Shown here piece by piece: positions 30,672 to 59,873 of a stretch of DNA of 64,000 bases. This DNA is from Octopus vulgaris. Its lineage: Eukaryota. Each line of letters opens with the position of its first letter. Position 1 is the first letter of the stretch. The notes beneath the pieces are model-generated. The model saw only the letters and a program-made list of their open reading frames with translations. It was not told where the DNA came from and ran no database searches. The stretch covers positions 17,980,001 to 18,044,000 of the forward strand of contig OX597832.1 in assembly GCA_951406725.2 (NCBI GenBank). The letters run 5' to 3'. The position numbers were made by a program, and so were the translations under genes.

Positions 30672-30835
30672 TTATACATATGTGTGTGTGTGTGTTACGG
30701 AGATGTACTTGCATAGCAAGTAACCTGATCTGGGATCGTGTGCTGGAACGAAAATAATTGCAGTGTGGAAGGTGTTTATAAGCCATTTAAGAAACACGCA
30801 AAAACCGTTAGATTCACTTCAACATATAAATTTAA

Positions 30836-30886
30836 TTTGTCACAATATTTTCGTCGCTTTGAGACCGCGACCTGTTCACTGACAAA
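30836..30886 (-). ncRNA. Type I hammerhead variant with a G3-C8-G17 core
   Basis: Minus strand TTTGTCA-GTGAACAG-GTCGC ggtctcaaa GCGAC-GAAAATATT-G-TGACAAA. Perfect 7-bp stem I, perfect 5-bp stem II, palindromic AATATT stem III. Confidence 0.7.
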
Positions 30887-30905
30887 ACTTCAGATGCAGC
30901 ACGAA

Positions 30906-30980
30906 GTCTTACAGCCGTTTCTGTGTAACCCGAGCGGTAGATTCTTATGTCCACACACTGGGTATTCCGTCATCAGAGGC
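30906..30980 (-). ncRNA. Type I hammerhead-like motif with canonical CUGAUGA core and extended stem II
   Basis: Minus strand GCCT-CTGATGA-CGGAATACCC...GGGTTACACA-GAAAC GGCT GTA-AGAC. GUA triplet; stems I and II are imperfect. Confidence 0.55.
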
Positions 30981-31120
30981 AATTTACGAATATTCTAAAC
31001 AGGGAAATTTAGAATTTACAAAAAATAAAATCGTAGTTTAAAAGTTATAAATTACAATAATAAAGCACTCTATTTCATTCCTTACATACTGTGAATTTTA
31101 TCCCTTGTAAGCTCTTTAAT

Positions 31121-31557
<437 letters not shown>

Positions 31558-58249: not shown

Positions 58250-59873
58250 CAGTGGCGGCCAAAATGATCAGAACGGCATTGTTTTCGCCAGAAAAGTAGG
58301 TATAATAAGTTTTTATCAACGTTGTTTTATGTTCTATAGTTTTCACAGAAAATAAATACGTTATTAATTGTTATTTTCTGAGATTTTGGTGTAATTTGAG
58401 TGGATAATACAAAAGTTATCGGTGATTTAGTAATTTACTGCAAAACCCATGCCGGCCAAAACTATCTGAACGGTTGAAAAAATAACAAAATAATCAAAAA
58501 TGACAGAGAATACTGGAATTATTTAATATTTAGTGTGAAGCCCTTTAGCTTCAATCACACTCTGACATCTTCGACTGCATGAGGAAATTAAATTCTCAAT
58601 TTCTTGCTGGGTGATCTTATTCCATTCTTCATGAAGGGCATTCCATAATTGCTAAGTTGTTTTAGGATTTCTGATTTTCGAATGTTCTCCTAGAATATTC
58701 CATACATTTTCAATAGGATTGAGATCTTGGCTTTGAGCAGGTCAATCCATAATAATAACCTTTTCAGCCTTGAGGAAGTTCATGACCACCTTAGCCTTGT
58801 GACATGGGGCATTGTCCTGCATGAATATAGGTGGTCGCTTAGTTGAATTTCTCAGCACAAGCAAGACATGATCTTTTACAAGTTGTTTATAAACTCCTGC
58901 ATTTACCTTTCCATGTAATCGCGCCAAAGAGCCCGCACCATCTCCAGATATCATTCCCCAAACCATGACACTTCCTCAACCGAATTTAACACTAGTCTTA
59001 AGGCATTTAAGCGACAATTTTTCACCTACTTTTCAACGAACGTACCAATCTGAGCCAAATAATATAAACTTAGATTCATCACTGAAATGCACCGTTGGCA
59101 ATTTTTTTTGAGACCACAACACATGTTCGGTTGCAAAGGTAAGACGACACTTTTTAATTTTGAGCTGATCAGTGGCTTCATTGCAGGTGATCTTGCTTGT
59201 AGGTTATGTTCAACTAAACGATGAGACACAGTTTTTCGAGATAACGTTTTCTTCAGTACAATGCTCATTTCCCGAGAAACAGCAGCAGCAGTTTTAAATC
59301 TGTCCTTTTTAACCAACTTTACCATAGCACGATCTTCTCTCTTGGTCGTTTTTCTTGGCCTACCTGTAGACCTTCTTGCTTCACATGAACCACAATCATT
59401 GAAGACCTTAAGAATACCATGAACAAGAATTTTTGACTTGTTAACAATCTTTGCAATAGACCAAATACTTAAATTATCCATCTTTCGAAGCTTAATAATC
59501 TGCTGACGAATTGGTAATGGAGTAAGTGGCATAATATTAACAAAGTACACTGCAGATATTCCTACTGATGTTTAGTAAACGAACCATCACGTAAACAAAT
59601 TCGAAACATTAAAGTTCGCTAGTTAATTATACTAAAACACGGAGTAAAAGCAACCGTTCTGATCATTTTGGCCACCATGGGTTTTGAGTAAATCACTAAA
59701 TCATCCATTAATTTTGTATTATATTCTCACATTACATCAAATTCTCAGACAAAAACAATTAATATTGTATTTATTGTGTGTGACAATTATACAATCTAAA
59801 ACAACTTTGATAAAAACTTATACCTACTTTTCTGGCGAAAACAATGCCGTTCTGAACATTTTGGCCGCAACTG
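58250..59873 (-). mobile_element. Tc1-family DNA transposon, IR/DR type, full length (1624 bp), inactive
   Basis: ~225-bp TIRs (58250-58476 and 59651-59873) starting CAGT, TA flanks, and the 20-bp repeat GGCCAAAATGATCAGAACGG at both ends of each TIR. Confidence 0.96.
58523..59532 (-). pseudogene. Tc1 DD34E transposase pseudogene
   Basis: MPLTPLPIRQQ...TGRPRKTT...FSDESKF...VMVWG...FMQDNAPCH-(34 residues D to E)-DLNPIENVW...IEAKGLHTKY*. Frameshift near 59160 and several in-frame stops, for example W to stop at 58742. Confidence 0.95.

What the first reader, a model, noticed from the sequence alone, without database searches (positions are those of the whole stretch)
30836..30886. Hammerhead with a triple co-varied core: G3-C8 plus G17
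Seen (minus strand): TTTGTCA GTGAACAG GTCGC ggtctcaaa GCGAC GAAAATATT G TGACAAA, with perfect stems I and II. Established: C3 and G8 form a tertiary Watson-Crick pair, and NUG is normally poorly cleaved, which is attributed to G17 pairing with C3. Here both partners are swapped (G3-C8), and position 17 is G, which a G3 core should tolerate. Inference: three mutually compatible changes with intact stems point to a selected, functional variant cutting after UUG (minus strand, between 30843 and 30842) rather than decay. I recall similar variants among PLE-associated HHRs, so the motif class may not be new.
Basis: partly seen in the sequence, partly recalled or inferred. Interest (0 to 1): 0.8.

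Follow-up and report, generated by a model that had tools for sequence, protein, structure and literature searches.

The report
Swapped-core hammerhead in Penelope retroelement family
This is one decayed copy of a jumping-gene repeat whose whole family carries a likely self-cutting "hammerhead" RNA with two paired core letters swapped; the third change that drew attention is a rare single-copy change, not a family trait, and cutting is untested.

Summary
The motif is at 30836-30886 (minus strand) as described and is not chance. The "triple covariation" fails: position 17 is U in 1903 of 1918 genomic pattern matches and G in 3, this copy included. G17 is one of 7 differences in an ordinarily decayed copy. 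G3-C8 is the family state: 1456 of 1613 matches, none C3-G8. A younger sister subfamily (1908 matches) keeps core and stems and changes loop II. It is the only hammerhead-like motif in an intact 1025-codon RT + GIY-YIG Penelope-like element, about 1 kb behind the stop. So: a natural G3-C8/U17 minimal, dimer-type hammerhead fixed in a high-copy Penelope lineage, predicted weak; cleavage is untested and no RNA ends pile up at the cut site. Natural U3-A8 and engineered G3-C8 are published; I found no natural G3-C8 report, but could not read Lunse 2017. This scan noted G3-C8 cores before in other genomes.

The parts
30836..30886 (-). Type I minimal hammerhead-like motif, G3-C8 core, extra nucleotide after A9, palindromic helix III
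30873..30879 (-). Core positions 3-9; G3 = 30879, C8 = 30874; family state
30844..30849 (-). Six-base A/U palindrome (helix III); predicted to pair only between two copies
   Evidence: sequence; pairing probability in a monomer <=0.0002, duplex -0.2 kcal/mol
30843..30843 (-). Position 17: G here, U in the family; a private substitution or an assembly error. Predicted cut site is between 30843 and 30842
30697..30891 (-). 5'-truncated copy of the terminal repeat (pLTR) of Penelope-like family A, older subfamily A1; followed by CA/TA microsatellite
30697..30753 (-). Optional 3' tail: copies end either near 30753 or at 30697
   Evidence: PLE tail described in PMC11167929
30892..30907 (+). 16-base inverted stub of the same element's usual 5' end (remnant of the inverted 5' copy typical of PLE insertions)
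30903..31065 (-). Neighbouring older repeat family B, carrying a canonical C3-G8 hammerhead-like motif at 30980-30906; cut off where the family A stub begins

Best explanation
The window holds a 5'-truncated copy of the terminal repeat of a Penelope-like retrotransposon whose lineage carries a fixed G3-C8, U17 minimal hammerhead that likely cuts its RNA weakly, as a dimer or with the element's protein, while G17 is likely a neutral change in this one copy. Shown: family membership, the fixed letters, and the link to an RT + GIY-YIG ORF. Inferred: the swap keeps the tertiary 3-8 pair; helix III forms only between two copies through the A/U palindrome, as in tandem transcripts; the cut would fall after UUU. 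Predicted by folding: in the family G3 pairs with U17 as a wobble that extends stem I, the mirror image of the C3-G17 trap, so monomers would stay mostly uncut. This fits genomic copies that keep the whole motif.
For: U17 in 1903 of 1918 matches, G17 in 3. G3-C8 in 1456 of 1613, C3-G8 in 0. Subfamily A2: 1908 matches, G3-C8 in 98 of the first 100 listed, U17 in 33 of 33 fetched copies. A1 and A2 majorities differ at 0 of 42 core/stem columns, 5 of 9 loop II columns, 8 of 144 other columns. This copy differs from A1 column majorities at 7 of 195 columns (3.6%; median copy 4.2%). Only hammerhead-like motif on either strand of the 4.2-kb intact element in L209, 996 bases behind the stop; ORF has GIY-YIG (Pfam E 1.8e-5) and matches RT-containing clusters (score 0.98). 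Extra nucleotide, G10.1-C11.1 and palindromic helix III are the published PLE traits (PMC4209133). C3G/G8C partly rescues a PLE hammerhead, which cut only with its protein (PMC11167929). G3-U17 pairing probability 0.67. One stem II pair shows excess double changes C-G to U-A (6 of 78, Fisher p 0.001).
Against: No cleavage was measured. No pile-up of RNA ends in 3 raw-read runs (a related organism, reads on both strands equally, so weak). None of 29 tail-selected loci begins at the cut site. 0 of 42 against a 5.6% background is not significant alone (about 2 expected). The stem II double change is 1 of 13 pairs tested, lies on CpG sites and copies are related. G3-G8 copies (44 of 1613) outnumber the transition G3-U8 (36), on at least 6 backgrounds. 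The palindrome is very weak, and the extra nucleotide is G where the published consensus has H. Counts are inflated by a composite repeat that carries the motif (12 of the first 30 loci).
Confidence: 0.65

Rival explanations
1. The family motif is a catalytically dead relic. Its hairpins are kept by descent or for another role (protein binding, splicing context), and G3-C8 was fixed without selection for cutting. G17 is private here too.
For: Copies keep the uncut motif; no RNA ends at the site; recurrent G3-G8 copies, some beside long 3' UTRs and ORF remnants; hammerhead mutants did not affect insertion in vitro in another PLE; several weakening traits coincide (swap, G insertion, A/U palindrome, G3-U17 wobble).
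Against: Two transversions that restore a Watson-Crick pair with every other core letter intact are unlikely under drift (inference). Core and stems are unchanged between A1 and A2 while loop II and the upstream UTR changed. No subfamily lacks A6: 81 scattered matches. Canonical PLE hammerheads also leave uncut copies and no RNA ends.
Confidence: 0.28
2. One reading: G3, C8 and G17 were selected together as a variant that cuts after UUG.
For: Chemically compatible. G17 removes the predicted G3-U17 wobble. A published Schistosoma row appears to combine U3-A8 with G17 (machine-read PDF).
Against: G17 in 3 of 1918 matches, rarer than C17 or A17; the other two have damaged stems; 0 of 33 A2 copies have it; RNA reads show U17 in 561 of 650, 463 of 539 and 348 of 422 reads.
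Confidence: 0.02
3. The motif is a chance look-alike: two hairpins in a repeat with no hammerhead ancestry.
For: No Rfam match; the core departs from consensus.
Against: 0 equally strong hits in 60 shuffled windows; it sits where PLE hammerheads sit and is the only candidate in the element; it has three published PLE traits.
Confidence: 0.04

Closest known systems
Minimal type I hammerheads of metazoan Penelope-like elements (Cervera & de la Pena 2014, PMC4209133; read: main text parts 1-2 of 4, supplement file 2 part 2 of 3 and passages; supplement file 1 not searchable)
   Same: Located in the pLTR; extra nucleotide after A9; G10.1-C11.1; palindromic helix III; many solitary and opposite-strand copies; U17 is common (20 of 44 rows read).
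   Different: Core pair is G3-C8; 0 of the 44 rows read has G3 (41 C3, 3 U3). Extra nucleotide is G (consensus H; one row has G).
Natural U3-A8 core covariants (Perreault 2011, PMC3088659, section 8 read; Cervera 2014)
   Same: Natural compensatory change of the tertiary 3-8 pair.
   Different: A purine-pyrimidine inversion (two transversions) rather than two transitions.
Engineered C3G/G8C and G17 hammerheads (Frangieh 2024, PMC11167929, parts 1-2 of 4 read; Kalweit & Hammann 2013, PMC3884650, introduction and passages read; PMC8495972, one passage)
   Same: Same swap; partial rescue reported, including in a PLE hammerhead; G17 tolerated better with G3-C8.
   Different: Those are laboratory mutants; here the swap is the natural state of thousands of copies, with U17.
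EN+ Penelope-like elements, Neptune/Nematis type (Craig 2021, PMC8557442, passages read)
   Same: RT then C-terminal GIY-YIG; Cys-rich linker before the endonuclease (seen by eye); inverted 5' copies, tail, (TA)n flanks.
   Different: Non-canonical hammerhead core; clade not tested by a tree; tail of about 57 bases rather than 30-40.

Membership tests
PLE minimal type I hammerhead | Stems I and II around the core | tested here: met
   7 and 5 bp
PLE minimal type I hammerhead | Literal CUGANGA core | tested here: not met
   G3 and C8; C3-G8 in 0 of 1613 matches
PLE minimal type I hammerhead | Watson-Crick complementarity at 3-8 with U4, G5, A6, A9, G12, A13, A14, A15.1, U16.1 intact | tested here: met
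PLE minimal type I hammerhead | Extra nucleotide after A9, G10.1-C11.1, palindromic helix III | tested here: met
   against PMC4209133; the extra base is G, not H
PLE minimal type I hammerhead | NUH triplet at the cut site | tested here: inconclusive
   not met in this copy (UUG); met in the family (UUU, 1903 of 1918)
PLE minimal type I hammerhead | Lies in the pLTR of an RT + GIY-YIG element | tested here: met
PLE minimal type I hammerhead | Self-cleavage as dimer or with protein | not testable with these tools
   RNA reads show no end pile-up, as also reported for an active PLE hammerhead
Rfam hammerhead families | Covariance-model match | tested here: not met
   no hammerhead match at E<=10 in 30690-31280
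EN+ Penelope-like element | Single ORF with RT and C-terminal GIY-YIG | tested here: met
   1025 open codons in L209; GIY-YIG by Pfam; RT by ESM Atlas clusters and motifs by eye; Pfam RVT_1 and PDB gave no hit
EN+ Penelope-like element | pLTR direct repeats, inverted 5' copies, optional tail | tested here: met
   direct repeats 3.9 kb apart around an ORF remnant in L211; inverted pairs; two 3' ends
Neptune/Nematis clade | Placement in an RT tree | not tested
   only the Cys-rich linker was seen
Non-LTR retrozyme | Short head-to-tail tandem units, non-coding | tested here: not met
   no such array at the locus; family is joined to a coding element

The most novel reading that the evidence does not exclude
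An autonomous Penelope lineage has spread to thousands of copies on a working hammerhead with an inverted G3-C8 core, invisible to standard descriptors, in which a G3-U17 wobble acts as a built-in off switch that dimerisation or the element's protein releases.
Probability: 0.3. Interest if true: 0.65.

Novelty: new variant of a known kind. Interest (0 to 1): 0.4.

Why it matters
Hammerhead searches usually require CUGANGA or UUGANAA, so a G3-C8 family with at least 3,000 pattern matches in one animal genome is missed, and PLEs may be wrongly called hammerhead-free. The role of PLE hammerheads is open; a young, intact element with a naturally altered core gives a direct test of whether cutting is under selection. 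The single-copy G17 matters little.

Tried and rejected
Triple covariation: rejected. G3-G8 copies as relics of the C3-G8 to G3-C8 path: rejected, they lie on at least 6 backgrounds and are no more diverged than C8 copies (0.031 vs 0.037). An older subfamily with U6: rejected (81 scattered non-A6 matches). A3-U8 as a compensated subfamily: 3 copies, not significant (p 0.18 in a sample enriched for them). Copies starting at the cut site: 0 of 29 loci; one arm in L030 starts there but is an internal deletion. Expression: no RNA holder listed for the stretch. Distant relatives to date the swap: one weak, useless metagenome hit; two proteins at 46% and 36% identity without DNA context. The 31-codon frame at 30786-30694 as the ORF's N-terminus: open in many copies, not shown. 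Literature for natural G3-C8: searches found none; PMC6155905, PMC7229834 and PMC6765202 (passages) and bioRxiv 2026.07.22.740005 (part 1 of 5) added none. Lunse 2017 (PMC5785218) and Przybilski 2007 (PMC1986816) are not held and may bear on novelty.

Full report
Observation. The motif is present at 30836-30886 on the minus strand exactly as reported, folds into both stems, and is the only hit in the window of a descriptor allowing any Watson-Crick 3-8 pair; 60 shuffled windows gave 0.03 hits on average and none this strong. It also has an extra G between A9 and G10.1 and a six-base palindromic helix III. Rfam has no hammerhead match there. The window is microsatellite-rich DNA from a 2.8-Gb genome.

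Family. Bases 30697-30891 are one copy of a high-copy repeat (1620 first-look candidates, 40 scored). Exact patterns over the whole genome give the state at each position. Position 17: 1918 matches, of which 1903 U, 8 C, 4 A, 3 G including this copy. Positions 3 and 8: 1456 G3-C8; 94 G3 with another base at 8 (44 G, 36 U, 14 A, counted by eye); 63 with another base at 3 (36 A, 22 U, 5 C); none C3-G8. These are pattern matches, not independent insertions: they miss copies with other changes, and a composite repeat with a fixed junction supplies 12 of the first 30 loci. This copy differs from the column majorities of 147 fetched A1 copies at 7 of 195 columns, close to the median of 4.2% (that sample includes copies I picked for odd letters). 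The other two G17 matches have a damaged stem I. RNA reads from a related organism show U17 in 561 of 650, 463 of 539 and 348 of 422 reads. G17 is therefore a private change or an assembly error.

Element. Most copies start about 15-20 bases before stem I, often beside an inverted arm, and end at one of two places about 57 bases apart (94 copies run into the tail, 82 do not). 133 matches extend further upstream through an intron-like 3' end; these lead through a microsatellite-rich UTR to a GIY-YIG ORF. A protein search found a younger subfamily A2 with a 1025-codon open frame that has GIY-YIG and resembles RT-containing clusters; Pfam RVT_1 and PDB gave no hit. A2 has 1908 pattern matches, G3-C8 in 98 of the first 100 listed, U17 in 33 of 33 fetched copies. 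The motif is the only hammerhead-like structure on either strand of the intact element. A1 and A2 differ at 0 of 42 core and stem columns, 5 of 9 loop II columns and 8 of 144 others: suggestive of constraint, not significant alone.

Mechanism. Shown: sequence, family state and context. From papers: PLE minimal hammerheads have these traits, cut weakly and only as multimers (PMC4209133); in an anole PLE the C3G/G8C double mutant partly rescued cutting, cutting needed the protein, insertion did not need cutting, and no RNA ends were seen at the site (PMC11167929); G17 is thought to trap C3 (PMC3884650). Inferred: the family cuts after UUU, slowly, when two copies pair through the palindrome or the protein refolds the RNA. 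Folding predicts a G3-U17 wobble extending stem I (probability 0.67), which G17 removes; the palindrome alone is worth -0.2 kcal/mol, and the unconstrained dimer fold swaps stems rather than pairing it. Against activity: no end pile-up, no copy starting at the cut site in 29 loci, and recurrent G3-G8 copies. A dead relic stays possible (0.28).

Comparison. It works like a PLE minimal hammerhead but fails the literal core consensus. Natural U3-A8 is published (PMC3088659; PMC4209133). None of 44 supplement rows read has G3; one appears to combine U3-A8 with G17 (machine-read). Eight paper searches found no natural G3-C8; Lunse 2017, the most relevant paper, was not held, so novelty is uncertain. 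Unchecked notes of this scan report G3-C8 cores in phages and behind two PLE-type RT genes.

Verdict. The finding as titled is refuted. What remains is a family-wide natural G3-C8/U17 hammerhead variant in an apparently young, intact Penelope lineage: a new variant of a known kind, interest 0.4.

Noticed in passing
window 30980-30906 (minus): A second, canonical C3-G8 hammerhead-like motif with a long stem II in older repeat family B; it is cut off a few bases after its predicted cut site, where 5 bases are shared with the family A stub.
   Followed up: partly
L049:2830 (+) and L177:8274 (+): Two hammerhead-like motifs with a U3-A8 core, palindromic helix III and C17, so this genome holds C3-G8, U3-A8 and G3-C8 cores. 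Copy numbers not checked.
   Followed up: no
G000, 44 matches: G3-G8 copies exceed the transition class, occur on at least 6 backgrounds and are strand-skewed (34 minus, 10 plus, counted by eye). Recurrent mutation, recombination or a sequencing artefact; unexplained.
   Followed up: partly
L074, L124, L130, L203 upstream of the motif: Branch-point-like and pyrimidine-rich stretch ending in AG about 15 bases before stem I; CAG and TAG both occur in A2. Most short copies start at this AG, as if made from spliced RNA. Inferred intron, untested.
   Followed up: partly
L031-L033, L091, L092, L100-L102: A larger composite repeat carries a head-to-head pair of family A arms with a fixed junction and has amplified it.
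   Followed up: partly
G000:C16 about 1-15 Mb and 43-56 Mb: Long, intron-retaining A1 copies cluster on contig C16 (39 of the first 100 listed, counted by eye), some mixing A1 and A2 traits.
   Followed up: no
window 30786-30694 (minus): 31-codon frame, open to the end of the tail in many copies; may be the ORF's start, as in the anole PLE.
   Followed up: partly
window 59026-59532 (minus): 168-aa frame that looks like a Tc1/mariner transposase N-terminus (recalled likeness, not searched).
   Followed up: no
window 31120-31270: Very deeply covered in RNA reads, about 15-20 times the motif at its peak; another abundant repeat.
   Followed up: no
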